Of a stretch of DNA of 64,000 nucleotides, positions 6,170-58,205 are shown in pieces. Under the pieces are notes generated by a model that was given only the letters and a program-made list of their open reading frames with translations, was not told the origin of the DNA and made no database searches. The stretch lies in NCBI GenBank assembly GCA_951406725.2, contig OX597817.1, positions 51,584,001-51,648,000 on the forward strand. Direction: 5' to 3'. The stretch is from Octopus vulgaris. Lineage: Eukaryota. Made by a program: the position numbers and the translations under genes. Position 1 is the first letter of the stretch, and the number at the start of each line of letters is the position of its first letter.

Positions 6170-6583
6170 GGCGGCGAGCTAGCAGAAACGTTAGCACGCC
6201 GGGCGAAATGCTTAGCGGTATTTCGTATGCCGTTACGTTCTGAGTTCAAACTCCGCCGAGGTCGACTTTGCCTTTCATTCTTTCGGGGTCGATTAAATAA
6301 ATACTAGTTACGCTCTGTGGTCGATGTAATCGATTCAATCCATTTGTCTGTCCTTGTTTGTCCGCTCTGTGTTTAGCCCCTTGTGGGTAGTAAAGAAATG
6401 GGTATTTCGTCTGCCGTTACGTTCTGAGTTCAAATTTCGCCGAGGTCGACTTTGCCTTTCATCCTTTCGGGGTCGATAAATTAAGTACCAGTTACGCACT
6501 GGGTTCGATATAATTGACTTAATCCCTTTGTCTGTCCTTATTTGTCCGTCCTATGTCTAGCCCCTTGTGGGCAATAAAGAAAT
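6170..6583 (+). mobile_element. SINE family 1 (dimeric)
   Basis: Same head, duplicated core and tail. Confidence 0.85.
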
Positions 6584-27409: not shown

Positions 27410-27417
27410 CATTATTA

Positions 27418-27454
<37 letters not shown>

Positions 27455-27574
27455 TATAATTATTACCATTATTATTATTATTATTGTTATTATTATTATA
27501 ATTATTATTATTATTACCATTATTATAATTATTATTATTATTATTATTACCATTATTATTATTATTATTATTAC

Positions 27575-27611
<37 letters not shown>

Positions 27612-27626
27612 GTTATTATTATTATA

Positions 27627-27709
<83 letters not shown>

Positions 27710-27844
27710 TATTATTATCATTATTACCATTATTATTACTATTACCATTATTATTGTTATCATTATTATTTTTATTACCATTATTATTATTATCATTATT
27801 ACCATTATTATTATTATTACCATTATTATTATTATTATTATTAC

Positions 27845-27889
<45 letters not shown>

Positions 27890-28024
27890 TATTATTATCA
27901 TTATTACCATTATTATTACTATTACCATTATTATTGTTATCATTATTATTTTTATTACCATTATTATTATTATCATTATTACCATTATTATTATTATTAC
28001 CATTATTATTATTATTATTATTAC

Positions 28025-28063
<39 letters not shown>

Positions 28064-28068
28064 TATTA
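27410..28068. repeat. (TAT)n/(TAC CAT) microsatellite with a 180-bp higher-order duplication
   Basis: Sequence at 27721-27840 equals 27901-28020. Confidence 0.9.
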
Positions 28069-28069
28069 T

Positions 28070-29905
28070 CTTTTTTTTCTTCTTTCAAATTTGCTTCCAT
28101 TTCTTGCCGAGTGTCTTCCCGAGTATACATTGGTAGGCCATTAAACTAAACTCTCTAGTTCGTTCATTTTTTTTAAAGTTAAATTAAAATACATGGGTAG
28201 TAATAGTTCTCACATCGACAATGCTCTTCTCAGTACGTGTGATGTACCAATTAAGACAATCTTTTGCACTTCTTGCAGGGATGGTAAGCCAGGGATCATT
28301 CTCATATAATTTTCGGTTCCCTTCTTGATCATTCCTAGTGCTCCTACGATCACTGGTATTGTAAACGCCTTGAGATGCCACATTTTCTCAATTTCAATGA
28401 GCAGGTCTTTATATTTTCTGAGCTTGTCAAACTCTTTCGCCGAGATATTATGATCACAGGGGATGCTCATGTCGATCAATAAGCAAACTTTATTGTTTGG
28501 GTCTTTCACAACAATATCTGGTTTATTAGCCTTGATGGTTCGGTCTGTATGTACTGGAAAGTCCCACAGAATCATTACATTTTCTCCTTCAGTTACAGCT
28601 TCAGGGTGGTGATTATACCACTTGTTGGCAGTTTTGATATTGTAATGCCGACTTATTAGCCAGTGTAGATATTGGCCAACTCTGTCATGTCTTAATTTAT
28701 AATCTCCACTGGTGCTAAGACTTTACATCCAGAGATTAGGTGGTCCAGTTTCAATCATGTCGTTGCAGAATCAGCATTTTGGGTCTGCTCCATTTTTCAT
28801 CACATTGGCCTGGTAGTTCCGGGTTAATAGGCTTTGATCTTGAGCAGCCAGGATGAAACCTTCGCTCTCTGTTTTTAGCCCTGAGCTCCGTAGCCACTGA
28901 TGGGTTTGCTTCTGGTCAACATCAGCTTGTTTGCTGCGGGCCACATAGTTGCCGTGCAGAGGTTTTTCCTCCCTCCTATCAGCCAATTGCTCGTGCGCTT
29001 TTTTCGTTGCCATTATTTTCACCTTCTTTGCAACAAACTGAACAACCCGAGGGACTCGGGTTGTTCAGTTTGGGTATCCTGCACGAGATCAATAGCAATT
29101 TTTTTGCTTTCCTTTATGATAGAATGAAGCTTCTTTCGTCTCTCGTGATTTTCCACGAGCTTTAGCATCCAGTCATTCATTATTTCGAGATATTTGGCCA
29201 GTCCAATTGTGGTTGTTTTGTAAGCTAGTTCAAATTGGATCAGGCCTCGACCTCCTTGGGCTCTGGGAAGGTAAAGGCGATCTACATCTGCCTTTGGGTG
29301 GTGCATCCTATTACAACTCAGCAGCTTGCGTATTTTCCTATCTATATTATTTACTTCACTCATATTCCAGTTCAACACATTGTAGCTATAAGTAACAACT
29401 GGAACTGCTAAGGAATTTATAGCTAACACCTTGTTACGTGCATTTAGTTCAGATTTCAGGACTGCACGAACTCTCCTATAACATTCCTTCCTGATCCTCT
29501 CTTTCATGCTTGCATGCTGAATACCAGAGCCTTCATTTATCCCTAAATATTTGTATGTTTGTTCTTGCTCAAGCTCTCTTATGACTGTGTCAACATCTAA
29601 CACGACTGAATTTGTGGTCTTCACTTTCCCTTTCTGGAAAGTGGCCTTGGCACACTTCTCAAGCCCAAACTCCATCCCAATGTCATCGCTGAATGCTTTC
29701 ACAGTGCGCAATAGGCCTTCAAGTTCATTATCGTCTTTACCATAGGGTTTTAAGTCATCCATATAAAATAGATGGCTTATTTTTTTATTGGCAATTTTAT
29801 ACCCATACCCTGTTCTGTTTAATTCACTTGTAAGGGGTATTAGGGCTATGCAGAATATTAAAGGTGAAAGTGAGTCACCTTGAAAAATTCCACAGTTGAT
29901 GTTTT
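28070..29905 (-). mobile_element. R4/Dong-type non-LTR retrotransposon, 5'-truncated and frameshifted (RT, CCHC, restriction-like endonuclease)
   Basis: GIFQGDSLSP, LFYMDD, RLYLPRAQGGRGL, AAQDQSL, PDIVVKD...LIDMSIP...KLRKY. Stop at 28210. (TAA)n arrays on both sides. Confidence 0.92.
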
Positions 29906-33651: not shown

Positions 33652-33969
33652 ACAGTTCTATATTTAAGAGATGAGGAATTAAGTACATTATTTACATTTG
33701 ACGGATATTTGTCCTCATCTTGTTTGTTGTTAACACAACTTTTCGGCTGATATACCCTCCAGCCTTCATCAGGTGTCTTGGGGAAATTTCGAAACTGGGT
33801 TCTCATTCCTAAGGTATTTTTTGATGTTGTTGTTATTATTATTATTGGTATTATTATTATTATCATTATTATTATTATTATTATCATTATTGTTCAGGTC
33901 ACTGCTTGGAATCGAACTGGGAATCTTGGGGTTAGTAGCCCGCGCTCTTAACCACTACGCCATATGCCC
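33652..33969 (-). mobile_element. tRNA-headed SINE with (AAT)n linker and hammerhead-bearing tail (family A)
   Basis: Head 33969-33892 has A box tggcgtagtgg and B box gttcgattcc. The tail contains gacac-ctgatga-a-ggctg...cagcc-gaa-aagt-t-gtgtt. Confidence 0.8.
33732..33777 (-). ncRNA. Minimal type I hammerhead ribozyme motif
   Basis: Stem I GACAC/GUGUU, core CUGAUGA, stem II GGCUG/CAGCC, GAAA. Stem III is ACGU in sibling copies and AAGU here. Confidence 0.7.
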
Positions 33970-35791
33970 GTGGGATATAGGGCGTAGTAGTTATAAATAA
34001 TGTACATAATTATTTTATATTCTCTCGAAATTTCTAGAGTCGCAGCATACAATTCTCGTAGGTAAGACCAAAGATTGTAAAACGAATATCGAAATTCGAA
34101 TGATTGCTTTCATCCAGTTTTATAACACCTGTCGTGTTTACAGAACGTGTAGGTCCATGTCCGATGGGCAGCCTTCAATTTTCTCCACCCAAAGGGTTAT
34201 TATAACCGAATATTTGCACGTTATTATTTATAGCTTTAACTACTTCGAGTTCCACTCACGTTCTCTCGAAATTTCTATATAATTATGACGTAGGTAACAT
34301 ATAATTTTCGCTTTTAATATTCGGAGAGCGAATTATGAAAGATTGCTCTGGTACAATTGTAGAACGTCTCTCATGGTTTGCAGAAGATGTAGGTTCGCGT
34401 CTCACGGTTACTCTTTTTTTTTCTTTTCAAAGTCGTTGTAACCCAATATTTACACGCTATTATTTATATCTAATAATAGCCTTATCTATTCAGAGTCCCT
34501 CTGTTGCGATCGAATTGGTTGGCCATACTTTAGAGCCAGACTTGTAGGTTTACTTTTAACCAGAAATGCTGTATTTTGTCTCTGGGTAGTTATTCGCATG
34601 ACTTTCATTATATCCATCAATACATCATGCTTACGTTATACACAGTGTCAATGGGCTGTTTACCGCAGTATTTATCCTGAGATAACATCACTCATGGACG
34701 GACATTGTTAAAAACGTAATATATATAAGGAGTCAAAAAATCATAAAAAAAGTTCTCATTATTTTCTCTATTATGATGGCTTTCCATTCCCGTAATGCTG
34801 CATACACTAAATTTTAGGTTTTGTTCAAAGGAAGTTCTTTTGTTTAAAACGGTTTTCCTACTTTCTATGTTTTCCCTCTAAATCGTTTCATGTTTTTCTT
34901 TCCTGGGTAGACTTTCTACTTTTAAGTTTTGTTATTGAATTCACCTTGACATTTGCATCTAGTTTGAACTGTTTGATTTATTTACTACAACGCTGTATAC
35001 TCCATGCTTCAACTTCAATTTGTTCAAGTTGATATTTATTTCTCTTGCGATTTTCAAGATCTTGTTCGTATTGAGTTTTAAGGACTCTAAACTAAATTTA
35101 TTTCTGAGTGGGTGACGGTTTTGTGATCCTGTTTCGGATCTCATTTATTTCTAATGCTATACCATTTCTCTTGAGATTTATCTCATGCGGAATTATCCCT
35201 TTCTAAATATAAACTGTTTTATTGTTTTCAATATTTACTGCTTATCTCGAAACCTGCAGTTCTGAATACTATACCAACTCCATTAGTTCTGTTGTATTAT
35301 TTCTACACGATAGCTAGCGTGTTTAAGTATGATTCTGCTTATCTAAGCAGCATGTTATTTTGAGGATTTCAAGCCTGTCTTCAATCTGCAAAAGTTTCTC
35401 TCTTCAAATGTTTGTCTAATTTCGTTTACCAAATTTTCCAAGTCGTTGCAATTATTCGTTTGCCTTTATCGCTGTCGAATGATTTTCTAATAGCATCATT
35501 TTGCAGTTTTGTGTTTTGAGAGGACTCTACTCTGTTTAAAGTAATGTAGTTACGTTCCTTTGAATTATAAAATGTGTCCATTTGCCCTTTATAATTTTTT
35601 CTGATGTGGTCCTGTTGTTTTCTGTTGTTTTCTGTTGTTCTTGGTTGTGTTATATTAATTTGGCTTAGTATTTTTATATATTTTACTATTCAACTAAAGT
35701 TATTCGTTTGTTTTTTGTTTATTTTCTTTCGTATCTTTAATAATTCTAAACTGTGACAGATGCCTGAATAACAAAACAAAAGTAAATATAT

Positions 35792-36021
35792 ATTTCTTTA
35801 CTACCTATAAGGGGCTAAACACAGAGAGGACAATCAAGGACAGACAAACGGATTAAGTAAATTACATCGACCCCAGTGCGAAACTGGTACTTTATTTATC
35901 GACCCCGAAAGGATGAAAGGCAAAGTCGACCTCGATGGAATTTGAACTCAGAACGTAACGACAGACGAAATACCGCGAAGCATTTCGCCCGTCGCGCTAA
36001 CGTTTCTGCCAGCTCGCCGCC
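35792..36021 (-). mobile_element. SINE family 1 with a target-site duplication of about 15 bp
   Basis: acaaaagtaaatata on both sides. Confidence 0.85.
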
Positions 36022-37197
36022 CTTTTGACAAAAGTAAATATAGGTTAAGTATATCTGTACGTATCTACATTCGAGTCCCTCCCTTCGGATATTATGTAGG
36101 GGTTTACTCCGTTAGTCTATTTTAAACACTCAATTAATTAGCCCACACGCCAGAAAGGGTTTAAGTATTTATTATTTTAGAGGGTATGGATTGTGGAGAG
36201 ACACACACACTCTCGTCTTTCAAAATTGTTTTGGTCTGAGGCAATGAGTGCCACATTCCCAGTCGTTATCAGGATACGGGTTCTGTATGGAGTTATCTAA
36301 TCCTAGATTAGTAGCTAAAGGACTCATACTATTTTTATGTATTATATGGTTCCGTTGGGGTGCCTCGGAGTAACCTTCTTCCGGGATCGATGCATAACTA
36401 TGATGAGGGGTCACTTACTTAAATGTCAACTTTTTCTAACGATGTTGTGTTACGGTGCATAAGCTGTTCCATTCAGCGTAGTTTTTTACCAGAACTGTTT
36501 GGAAGTTCAAATTGATACACATATGATGACAGCTGATGCGAAACCTCTAAATGTTCCAGGCGTTTCTTCGGGAATTGTCAGAATGAAATACGATTTATAC
36601 TGAAGGACTGGATATTCATGCGGGGGGAATTAGTATGCCCCTTAAGGAACATTTATGAACAATTACAAAGAGAATATTCAAAACTTTAACAGGAAACAAT
36701 ACAAGTCATTTGCAATCGAATTATAATCAATCTTTCCACATTTCTTCGATACAGTAAAAAGACACCCTTAATATAAAACGATGTACTATAAGGACCTGGC
36801 CGCATATACTCTTTTCTTCAATTTGTTATCAAAACTACTTTCCCACGCAGAGATATAAAGTGGACATCCCAGTACTATACTCCAACCATTTATGAAACAT
36901 ATACCAAACACATTTACACAACTATCCCAGCTTTTACAGTTCTATATTTAAGAGATGAGGAATTATGTACATTATTTACATTTGACGGATATCTGACCTC
37001 ATTTTATTGTTGTTAACATAACGTTTCGGCTGGTATATCCTCCAGCCTTCATCAGGTGTCTTGGGGAAATTTCGAACCTGTGTTCTCATTCTTAACGTAT
37101 GGCGTAGAGGTTAAGAGCGCTGGCTACTAACACCAAGATTCCGAGTTCGATTCCAGGCAGTGACATGAATAATAATAATAATGATAATAATAATAAT

Positions 37198-37750
37198 GCT
37201 CTGATGCTGTACCAGGCAGTGGCTCTCATGGAGTCTAACCTTAATTGATTGGAAGTGTTATCATGTACATTGTTTTGTCTTAGTATAAAAGATGGGCTAC
37301 AGCAAATATTCTGCTCAATACCACAGATTTGATTGTCAGTTGTTTGACCTTAACCAGTTGAGCATGTCCCTTGGTGGCTGACGATATGTGCATCAATGAC
37401 CACGGGCAGAAGTAGTGGGGAGCATCATAGCCGTGTATTGAAAGGAATTCTTAGAGGTTTGGATAATTCACCTTTGGAAACATAGGTGGTTCGTTCAACA
37501 TCCTTAAACAATCCTTATTCAGAGACCTTTTGAGCAGGATGGGCTACTCGACCAGAAGAAAATTCTAACTGGGCCCCACCTGCAAGGTCATGCGCTGTTT
37601 ATCTTGATATGAGATCCCCATGTCGCGCACATATGGTTGTGATGCATATGCTCGGTGTACCCTTAACATGCAGGTAGTCATGATGGGTATACTGGGCTTC
37701 GTATATTTTAACCCAGTGTCACTTTGATGGCATGCACTGCTCTCTCACTC
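37198..37750. repeat. Unclassified segment bounded by (AAT)n on both sides, possibly the 3' UTR of a second TAA-targeting LINE
   Basis: Complex non-coding sequence sharply delimited by AAT arrays inside the SINE linker. Confidence 0.4.
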
Positions 37751-37791
<41 letters not shown>

Positions 37792-37813
37792 TAATAATAA
37801 TAATAATAATAAT

Positions 37814-38775
37814 AAACACAAAGAAGAAGATGATGAAGAAACAACAAAAGCTATAAAACAAATGAAATCCAAACTAAAAATAGAACAGCAACGAGCCATG
37901 ATAAAACGATGGCAAGAAAAACCCCTTCATGGTAAATACTGCACTAAACTAAACGCAAAAGAAATAGACAAAGAAAAATCCCAGCAATGGTTGAGAAGCT
38001 CAGGACTCAAAGCAGAAACAGAGGGATTTTTAATTGCAGCACAAGACCAAAGCCTCCCCACCAGAAATTACCAAAAACATGTAATGAAAAGAAATATTAC
38101 AAGTAACTGCAGAATATGTGGAGATGGACAAGAAACAATAAATCATATTATCTCTAGCTGCCCAGTCCTGGCTAAGAAGGAATATATTCACAGACATGAC
38201 AGAGTTGGAACCTACATACACTGGAAGCTATGCCAACATTATGGAATAACAACAGAAAAAAGATGGTATAGGCACACACCAGAAAAGGTCACAGAAAACG
38301 AGAAAGCAACCATACTCTGGGATATGCCGATACACACAGATAGAGAAATTAAGGCCAACAGACCAGATATAGTTGTCAGAGATCATGAAGAAAAAAATGC
38401 TTTCTAATTGATGTATCAATACCGGCAGATGACAACGTGTCTCTAAAAGAAATGGAGAAACTCTCAAAATACAAAGACCTGGAAATAGAGATAACTAGAA
38501 TGTGGAACCTGAAAACAGAAACAATTCCTATCATAGTAGGTGCATTAGGCATGATAAAAAAATATTCAGACAAATACATAACAAAAACACCAGGACTTAC
38601 AAACACATATAACATACAGAAAATTGCACTACTAGGCACTGCACACATCCTACGCAGAACACTTTCCATACAATAACCATCAGAGCATCACAACAAATCA
38701 CAGCACATACCCAAGGCACACAGAGCTGCGCTCGGTAGTGAAGTGAAAGCACGCTATAAAAATAAAACTACTGAA
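37814..38775 (+). mobile_element. R4/Dong-type LINE 3' fragment (CCHC and RLE) with one frameshift near 38395
   Basis: WQEKPLHG, IAAQDQSL, CRICGDGQETINHIISSC, RPDIVVRD, KLSKYKDL. Stop at 38676, then a short 3' UTR and (AAT)n. Confidence 0.92.
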
Positions 38776-38789
38776 TAATAATAATAATC

Positions 38790-38852
<63 letters not shown>

Positions 38853-39619
38853 TCGAAAAATAACTTAGGAATGAGAACCCAGGTTCAAAATTTCCCCAAC
38901 ACACCTGATGAAGGCTGGAAGCTATATCAGCCGAAAACGTGTGTCAACAACAAATAAAATGAGGACAAATATCCGTCAAATATAAATAACGTAAATAATG
39001 TACCCCAGCTCTTCTATAAACATTTATGAAAATTAGTTCGTACAATAATTCACAACCTCTTTTACACCTTAAGAGTTTAGTAGGTTATATCAACCACAGA
39101 CCAATAAAGAGATGACAAAAATAGTTAAAATCAGTGGGATCTCAAATCTGTAACCGGGTGTAAATACCGCAAGGTATCTTATCTTGCGCTTTAACTAACG
39201 GTACTAAAAATTCGATGCGAAATTGCAGGCTATGCCCAAAATACCTATATAATATTTCTATGAGTATAATTGGTTTATACACATGCACAGTTGCCTATTT
39301 CCTTATATCTGAATAAATTTTATTTAAAACTAAACTGCACATAACACTATTTTGATGACAGAAACCCCGCTCACTCCCCCCCTCTCTATCTATATATCAA
39401 TCTATCTATCCCTCCCTCTCTCCGCCGGGCTGTCTTTCTGTCTACCAGTCACTATCTGGCAGTTTCTGTTCACATGCATACATATAAATGTATATATGCA
39501 TATATATACATACACACACTTATGTATGTACGTGCGTGTGCTTGTGCTAGCGCGCGCGAAAACTGTGGTAGAAATTAAATTAAATTCATGTATAATTTAT
39601 TTTACATACATATAGACAG

Positions 39620-57615: not shown

Positions 57616-58205
57616 AGGCGGCGAGCTGGCAGAATCCTTAGCACGCCGAGCGAAATGCGTAGCCGTATTTCGTCTGCCGTTACATTCTGAGTTCAAATTC
57701 CGCCGAGGTCGACTTTGCCTTTCATCCTTTCGGGGTCGATTAATTAAGTACCAGTTACGCACTGGGGTCGATGTAATCGACTTAATCCGTTTGTCTGTCC
57801 TTGTTTGTCCTCGCTGTGTTTAGCCCCTTGTAGGTAGTAAAGAAATGGGTATTTCGTCTGCGGCTACGTTCTGAGTTCAAATTCCGCCGAGGTCGACTTT
57901 GCTTTTCATCCTTTCGGGGGTCAATAAATTAAGTACCAGTTACGCACTGTGATCGATATAATCGCCTTAATCCCTTTGTCTATCCTTGTTTTTCCCCTCT
58001 GTGTGTAGCCCCTTGTAGGCAGTAAAGAAATAAGAAACGTCAGCACGCTGGGCGAAATGCTTAGCAGTATTTAGTCTGCCGCTACGTCGACTTTGCCTTT
58101 CATCTTTTAAGAGTCGATAAATTAAGTACCAATGAATCACAGGGGCCGATGTAATCGACTTATCCCCTCCCACCAAAATGGCTGCCCTTGTGGCAAAATT
58201 TAAAA
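57616..58205 (+). mobile_element. SINE family 1 (trimeric)
   Basis: Core occurs three times. Confidence 0.85.

What the first reader, a model, noticed from the sequence alone, without database searches (positions are those of the whole stretch)
36926..39013. Second hammerhead SINE with Penelope-style inverted tail, a putative TSD and nested LINE insertions
Seen: inverted tail, tRNA head, (AAT)n, an unknown 550 bp, (AAT)n, a Dong-type 3' fragment, (AAT)n, then the tail. The block is bracketed by cccagctttt (36926) and cccagctctt (39004). Removing the nested pieces restores the same head-AAT-tail order as 33652-33969, which independently supports the linkage. Inference: one insertion event with a 5' inverted terminal copy, whose AAT linker later served as a landing pad for TAA-specific LINEs. 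The tails also form inverted repeats of about 140 bp around LINE cargo.
Basis: partly seen in the sequence, partly recalled or inferred. Interest (0 to 1): 0.75.

Follow-up and report, generated by a model that had tools for sequence, protein, structure and literature searches.

The report
Penelope retroelement end with tRNA promoter

Summary
The anatomy is real, but the 'SINE' is not a separate family. Head + (AAT)n + hammerhead tail is the terminal repeat (pLTR) of an autonomous Poseidon-type Penelope-like element (PLE). It follows the endonuclease in 26 of 29 loci and runs into the ORF start in 27 of 30. The locus is one PLE-type insertion: head-to-head arms, one long and one short end, a 10-bp duplication (family: 15 of 27 against 11 of 702 null pairs), and two rare bases shared by both arms. 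The 550-bp piece is a complete non-autonomous AAT-targeting repeat, not a LINE. The Dong fragment is much younger. The linker is not a preferred landing pad. The notable feature belongs to the family: 71 of 97 arms start at the tRNA-Arg-like head, A and B boxes are intact, and the 2.6-kb majority sequence has no TTTT (P 0.02-0.04). This suggests polymerase III transcription, which is untested. No empty allele was found. The scan found this family before on other DNA of this genome (e1-8669850, e1-8663237).

The parts
36926..36935 (+). Left copy of the target-site duplication (10 bp with 1 mismatch; 13 bp with 2 mismatches if extended left)
   Evidence: family-wide test
36936..37100 (-). Inverted pLTR arm with the long end (about 30-nt 'tail' = first codons of the PLE ORF beyond the pLTR); family positions 10-175
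37015..37060 (-). Minimal type I hammerhead in the inverted arm: core 37049-37055, 6-bp stem II, palindromic ACGT stem III intact, one mismatch in stem I
   Evidence: architecture from PMC4209133; cleavage untested
37098..37100 (.). 3-nt microhomology (TAT) at the junction of inverted and direct arm
   Evidence: sequence
37098..37167 (+). tRNA-Arg-like head from tRNA position +5; A box 37100-37110 (one mismatch in this copy), B box 37145-37154
37168..37197 (+). (AAT)n linker of the pLTR, first part
37196..37751 (+). Complete non-autonomous, AAT-tailed, AAT-targeting repeat of about 555 bp; partner unknown; 7.5% from its majority
37752..37815 (+). (AAT)n array between the two nested elements
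37816..38773 (+). 5'-truncated, very young Dong/R4-type LINE (zf-RVT and restriction-like endonuclease region, 3' UTR); frameshift at the A run 38391-38397
38774..38850 (+). (AAT)n array: Dong tail plus rest of the linker
38851..39003 (+). Direct pLTR arm with the short end (family position about 149, with a repeated 9-nt unit); hammerhead core 38905-38911, cleavage triplet damaged in this copy
39004..39013 (+). Right copy of the target-site duplication
   Evidence: same letters in run X4
33652..33974 (-). Second copy of the same pLTR (head from -5, AATn, hammerhead, long tail), single arm; a separate insertion

Best explanation
The block is a single insertion of the terminal repeat (tRNA-like head, AATn, hammerhead, ORF-start tail) of an autonomous Poseidon-type Penelope-like retroelement, set head-to-head between a 10-bp duplication; it was likely copied from an RNA that likely began at the tRNA-type promoter, a young Dong LINE entered its AAT linker later, and a 555-bp repeat probably did so too. 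Shown: the repeat follows the element's endonuclease and leads into its 835-codon ORF; paired arms nearly always have one long and one short end; most copies begin at tRNA +1. Inferred: RNA polymerase III starts at about -6 to +1. The PLE protein nicks both target strands about 9-13 nt apart. Each nick primes reverse transcription at one of two internal sites about 30 nt apart near the ORF start (family positions about 143-149 and 175). Both cDNAs run towards the RNA 5' end and join by microhomology (TAT here). Because the priming sites lie only about 300 nt from the RNA 5' end, the usual product is a short SINE-like copy, and ORF-bearing copies come from tandem read-through.
For: pLTR identity: endonuclease followed by spacer and head in 26 of 29 loci; tail continuous with the ORF start in 27 of 30; majority ORF 835 aa from the first Met, with RT and GIY-YIG-type motifs, 57% identical to P0009 over 827 aa starting inside the pLTR and 37% to Anolis P0087; RVT_1 hit; the window's own tail translates to match the P0009 N-terminus (11 of 17, E 1e-4). 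One event: duplications in 16 of 23 and 15 of 27 long/short pairs against 7 of 506 and 11 of 702 null pairs; 27 of 29 head-to-head pairs are long/short; both arms here share a 2-base variant found in 1 of 223 other copies. This matches the inverted pLTR, 31-bp tail and 8-10-bp TSD of PMC3846280 and the two-strand cleavage and two internal RT starts of PMC11167929. Promoter: 71 of 97 arms start at -10..+20, none at -101..-299, 8 beyond -300; 19 of 31 arms with unique flanks start at -10..+10; A and B boxes intact while the cloverleaf is lost; closest to this genome's tRNA-Arg(ACG), z 8.8; no T4+ run in 2587 nt against 9 and 8 in two other PLE ORFs of this genome, P 0.019-0.038.
Against: No RNA evidence: transcription start, polymerase and hammerhead cleavage are untested. 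The T4 deficit is modest (P 0.09 under a Markov null) and the two controls are distant PLE families. Many 5' ends coincide with a small palindrome at -7..+5, so fold-back can explain part of the pile-up. Of 7 ORF-start loci that reach the head, only 2 begin at +1 and 4 run on into an upstream tandem copy. Same-locus arms do not in general share more variants than other pairs (mean 0.23 against 0.19). No empty allele was seen. Loci were the best hits of similarity searches, not a random draw, except the 800-kb sample. The 555-bp insert is as diverged as the arms (7.5%), so it may have been in the template. Only three tRNA types were compared.
Confidence: 0.68

Rival explanations
1. Same PLE insertion, but the tRNA-like segment is a passive fossil in a polymerase II transcript. 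Copies pile up at +1 because reverse transcription stalls or the cDNA folds back at the small palindrome there, and fold-back also makes the inverted arm.
For: 12 of 65 inverted arms end at -6 or -7, and several pairs are symmetric about the palindrome. PMC3846280 (passages) reads palindromic junctions as self-priming. Short and long copies are not distinguishable. A and B boxes are only slightly better kept than the rest of the head (0.96-0.97 against 0.95).
Against: Arms with unique flanks pile up too (19 of 31). This locus joins by microhomology far from any palindrome. The ORF is T4-free. The head does not fold as a tRNA, so it is a weak structural block.
Confidence: 0.22
2. One reading: an independent tRNA SINE family with its own master genes, mobilised in trans by a PLE through a borrowed hammerhead tail.
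For: Most copies look like head + AAT + tail; 23 of 27 head-selected loci have the tail behind them. One position (130) differs in frequency between short and long copies (P 0.003 uncorrected).
Against: The whole unit, head included, is part of the autonomous element. No fixed diagnostic site among about 218 positions; similar divergence, 4.0-4.3% against 4.9%.
Confidence: 0.08
3. Two independent insertions landed back to back and the 10-bp repeat is chance.
For: One mismatch in the duplication; arms 13% apart; no empty allele recovered.
Against: Null rate about 1.5%; the long/short head-to-head layout is a family rule (29 of 56 loci paired); a shared rare variant.
Confidence: 0.02

Closest known systems
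Penelope/Poseidon-clade PLEs: Poseidon_Ac of Anolis (PMC11167929, parts 1-2 of 4 read) and Adineta Pen2a (PMC3846280, passages)
   Same: RT plus C-terminal GIY-YIG-type ORF that begins inside the pLTR; minimal hammerhead; optional tail of about 30 nt; inverted 5' pLTR; TSD of about 9-13 bp; 37% identity to Anolis protein P0087 (that P0087 is Poseidon_Ac is my inference from host and length)
   Different: The pLTR starts with a tRNA-Arg-like segment with A and B boxes plus an AAT array; most copies start at that head; no T4 in the majority ORF. The passages read describe a TATA/Inr-like promoter for Pen2a and no tRNA head.
TRIMp3 elements Cassandra, Helenus, Ajax (PMC10886601, passages)
   Same: Small-RNA-derived polymerase III promoter inside a terminal repeat of a retroelement
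   Different: Those are non-autonomous LTR elements of 0.3-1.3 kb, and the paper argues that their autonomous partners must use polymerase II. Here the promoter-like segment sits in an autonomous, protein-coding PLE.
Schistosoma hammerhead SINE-like repeats (as reviewed in PMC6765202, passages)
   Same: Polymerase III-type promoter upstream of a hammerhead in a short retroposed repeat
   Different: Described as tandem, non-coding repeats; here the unit is the terminal repeat of a coding PLE, dispersed, with PLE-type inverted arms.
Animal non-LTR retrozymes (10.64898/2026.07.22.740005, part 1 of 5 read)
   Same: Non-coding, hammerhead-bearing derivatives of PLE pLTRs
   Different: Tandem arrays without a tRNA head in the part read; ours are dispersed single or head-to-head copies.
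Octopus tRNA-derived SINEs OK, OR1, OR2 (Ohshima and Okada 1994; not held; names partly recalled)
   Same: tRNA-derived heads; the host here looks octopus-like from its repeats (my inference, no call names it)
   Different: OR1 is a CORE-SINE (PMC4824008, passage). Whether OK or OR2 is this sequence could not be tested.
Dong/R4 LINEs
   Same: AAT-microsatellite target and AAT tail, zf-RVT region; young and abundant; listed as recently active in Octopus vulgaris (PMC13282606, passages)
   Different: Nothing unusual, apart from a frequent 7-A frameshift allele.

Membership tests
Penelope-like element (Penelope/Poseidon type) | Single ORF with RT and C-terminal GIY-YIG endonuclease | tested here: met
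   835-aa majority ORF, RVT_1 hit, full-length match to PLE-type proteins. Pfam GIY-YIG did not score on the L267 fragment, so the endonuclease is assigned by motif and alignment.
Penelope-like element (Penelope/Poseidon type) | pLTR in direct tandem or inverted arrangement, overlapping the ORF start | tested here: met
Penelope-like element (Penelope/Poseidon type) | [quoted passage not shown] | tested here: met
   Bimodal 3' ends at about 143-149 and 171-175; 27 of 29 pairs long/short
Penelope-like element (Penelope/Poseidon type) | Minimal type I hammerhead in the pLTR | tested here: met
   Core, extra base before stem II, 6-bp stem II, palindromic stem III and short stem I seen; not detected by Rfam
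Penelope-like element (Penelope/Poseidon type) | Ribozyme cleavage | not testable with these tools
   needs an in vitro assay
Penelope-like element (Penelope/Poseidon type) | Clade placement by RT phylogeny | not tested
   Pairwise identities only; no tree built
tRNA-derived SINE (SINEBase definition, PMC3531059, passages) | Head derived from tRNA with internal promoter boxes | tested here: met
   only Arg(ACG), Arg(TCG) and Gly tRNAs were available for comparison
tRNA-derived SINE (SINEBase definition, PMC3531059, passages) | Short (<700 bp) non-autonomous family, separate from its partner | tested here: not met
   The unit is the terminal repeat of the autonomous element; no diagnostic split. 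Short copies behave like SINEs but are not a separate family.
tRNA-derived SINE (SINEBase definition, PMC3531059, passages) | Transcribed by RNA polymerase III | tested here: inconclusive
   Indirect only: 5' pile-up, intact boxes, T4-free sequence
tRNA-derived SINE (SINEBase definition, PMC3531059, passages) | Mobilised by a LINE partner, simple-repeat 3' tail | tested here: not met
   Integration signature and shared sequence are those of a PLE
Non-LTR retrozyme | Tandem arrays of hammerhead-bearing units | tested here: not met
   Dispersed single or head-to-head copies; only occasional partial tandems
Dong/R4 LINE (nested piece 37816-38773) | Insertion into and tail of (AAT)n | tested here: met
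   All 30 loci end in an AAT-type array; truncated copies have AAT upstream
LINE (nested piece 37196-37751) | Coding remnant with variable 5' truncation | tested here: not met
   No ORF, fixed 5' end, no match to the young Dong

The most novel reading that the evidence does not exclude
An autonomous, protein-coding retrotransposon that is transcribed end to end (about 2.8 kb) by RNA polymerase III from a captured tRNA-Arg promoter in its terminal repeat, has lost polymerase III terminators from its ORF, and through internal priming sheds tens of thousands of SINE-like copies of its own 5' end: a SINE and its Penelope-type parent in one sequence.
Probability: 0.3. Interest if true: 0.8.

Novelty: new variant of a known kind. 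Interest (0 to 1): 0.52.

Why it matters
SINEs are defined as polymerase III passengers of LINEs, and autonomous retroelements are assumed to need polymerase II (PMC3531059, PMC10886601). A PLE with a tRNA-type promoter in its pLTR and a T4-free ORF would break that split, raise the question of how an uncapped RNA is translated, and show a direct route to SINE birth. The long/short pairing with duplications and a shared variant gives genomic support for two-strand priming at two internal sites, so far shown only in vitro. In practice, some of what is annotated as SINE in such genomes may be PLE ends. The locus itself is an ordinary, decayed copy among roughly 12,000-55,000 (8 loci in 800 kb; my Poisson arithmetic).

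Tried and rejected
Rfam found no hammerhead or tRNA, and ARAGORN found none in the window or in the majority head at 80-90% threshold. Empty-site search: the left flank is unique in G000. Contigs of runs X3, X4 and X7 (organisms A, B, C) continue from the left flank 23-24 letters into the element, and X4 covers the right junction with about 30 letters. This is just under the tool's 31-letter bridging rule, so the shared filled allele is likely, not proven. X10 (organism D) has no cover at either junction, and X1 and X7 have none at the right one; no empty allele was displayed. No RNA holder was listed for the flank. A GIY-YIG family search gave 50 loci of other PLE families, none with this pLTR as its own end; the parent was found instead from shared upstream sequence. 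A general shared-variant test between same-locus arms was uninformative. The count of 1 in 91 linkers with cargo is an underestimate because loci reach only 1.5 kb. The partner of the 555-bp repeat was not found. Ten literature searches listed no paper on a tRNA-headed or polymerase III PLE; I saw listings and abstract starts only, except for the papers named. The one supplement of PMC13282606 holds tables, not the repeat library.

Full report
Observation. The inverted tail at 36936-37100 is about 30 nt longer at its outer end than the direct tail at 38851-39003. It joins the head through a shared TAT (37098-37100). The two 10-mers lie directly outside the arms. A second copy of the unit lies at 33652-33974 on the minus strand.

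The family and its integration signature. The tail is a dispersed repeat: 1663 candidates in G000 (a lower bound) and 8 loci in 80 evenly spaced 10-kb stretches. 3' ends are bimodal, near family positions 143-149 and 171-175. Head-to-head pairs are common (29 of 56 loci; the window's own loci and two duplicate loci were left out), and 27 of these 29 have one long and one short end. Duplications scoring 8 or more flank 16 of 23 pairs in the first set and 15 of 27 in the second, against 7 of 506 and 11 of 702 mismatched pairs. This locus scores 8. Both of its arms carry a two-base variant seen in 1 of 223 other copies, and that copy was selected by likeness to this arm. An inverted pLTR, an optional tail of about 31 bp and an 8-10-bp TSD are the PLE signature (PMC3846280 and PMC8557442, passages).

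It is a pLTR, not a separate SINE. Several copies share sequence upstream of the head that translates as a PLE endonuclease C-terminus. In 29 loci chosen by that coding region, 26 have the head about 40 nt behind the stop and 25 have the hammerhead tail behind that. In 30 loci chosen by the ORF start, 27 have the tail running directly into it. A majority of 67 fragments gives one ORF of 835 aa that begins inside the pLTR, 57% identical to P0009 and 37% to Anolis P0087. No intact copy was seen: open frames in the 30 loci reach at most 338 aa. Short and ORF-bearing copies have similar divergence and no fixed difference. The hammerhead fits the minimal dimer-type motif of PLEs (PMC4209133, parts 1-2 of 4 read): core, extra base before stem II, 6-bp stem II, palindromic stem III. 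It is nearly intact in the inverted arm and damaged in the other two window copies.

What is unusual. The pLTR begins with a 75-nt segment closest to this genome's tRNA-Arg(ACG) (z 8.8; Arg(TCG) 7.2; Gly 4.0). It keeps the A and B boxes (motifs as in PMC10886601 and recalled consensus) but not the cloverleaf. Of 97 head-bearing arms, 71 begin within -10..+20 of tRNA +1, 16 at -11..-100, none at -101..-299, 8 beyond -300 and 2 at +21..+45 (ends beyond +45 are excluded by design). Further upstream, truncation points spread over 19-1357 nt, about one per 540 nt (my arithmetic), which would put about 5% in such a window. The majority sequence has no run of four or more T in 2587 nt. Two other PLE ORFs of this genome have 9 and 8. 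Codon-based nulls expect 3.0-3.6 (P 0.038 and 0.019); a Markov null gives P 0.09. These are indirect signs of polymerase III transcription. Against them: many ends coincide with a small palindrome that could cause fold-back, and only 2 of 7 ORF-start loci that reach the head begin at +1. The idea that the whole element, not only a short form, may be read by polymerase III came from earlier finding e1-8669850; the ORF-start search and the T-run test were my checks of it.

Mechanism (inferred). Poseidon_Ac protein cleaves and extends both target strands and starts reverse transcription at two internal sites that bound the tail (PMC11167929). Applied here: staggered nicks give the duplication, each strand primes at one of the two sites, and the two cDNAs meet head to head. 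With the RNA 5' end at the tRNA head, about 300 nt upstream, the default product is a short copy. In this locus the direct arm reached +5 and the inverted arm stopped at pLTR position 10.

Nested pieces. The 555-bp element is a complete repeat (6320 candidates) with a fixed 5' end, usually between AAT arrays. It has no ORF, no A or B box and no match to Rfam or the young Dong family. This copy is 7.5% from its majority, so its order relative to the PLE insertion is open. The Dong fragment is identical over 374 bp to 28 other copies, so it is recent. Neither element favours this linker: 0 of 29 and 2 of 29 other copies lie in one, and linkers are 3 of 69 random AAT arrays; 3 of 29 endonuclease-selected loci have the 555-bp repeat in a linker.

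Empty site. Not found; contigs of three organism labels appear to carry the filled allele, with flanks under 1% different in substitutions.

Verdict. A real, single PLE-type insertion and an ordinary copy. The family is a new variant of a known kind. I found no description of it in ten searches, but Repbase, Dfam and the 1994 octopus SINE paper were out of reach.

Noticed in passing
window 38391-38397; loci L112-L141: 20 of 28 scorable young Dong copies have 7 A at a site where 8 keep the frame, while other A runs are stable (for example 30 of 30 at a 7-A site). A frameshifted sublineage may be spreading in trans, or it may be an assembly bias at 8-A runs.
   Followed up: partly
window 37196-37751; loci L083-L111: An abundant 555-bp non-autonomous repeat with a fixed 5' end, AAT tail and AAT target, no polymerase III boxes and no identified partner; it often clusters with Dong copies.
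   Followed up: partly
G000, e.g. L078:945-3287: A different, much younger PLE family with many intact 781-aa open frames and its own hammerhead-like motif.
   Followed up: partly
short 3' ends, e.g. window 38985-39003, L026, L158: Short ends often carry one to three copies of a 9-nt unit, like slippage at the start of reverse transcription; long ends are followed by AT in 44 of 64 cases.
   Followed up: partly
window 28322-28692, minus strand: An older Dong-like fragment, 64% identical to the young one, beside the long ATT array at 27411-28069.
   Followed up: no
window 35800-36020, 6217-6583, 57665-58031: Copies of another abundant SINE-like repeat, two of them as 184-185-bp tandem pairs; probably one of the known cephalopod SINEs (recalled, not tested).
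   Followed up: no
G000:C2:211.83-211.97 Mb: A tandem cluster of tRNA-Arg(ACG)-like genes at about 206-bp spacing.
   Followed up: no
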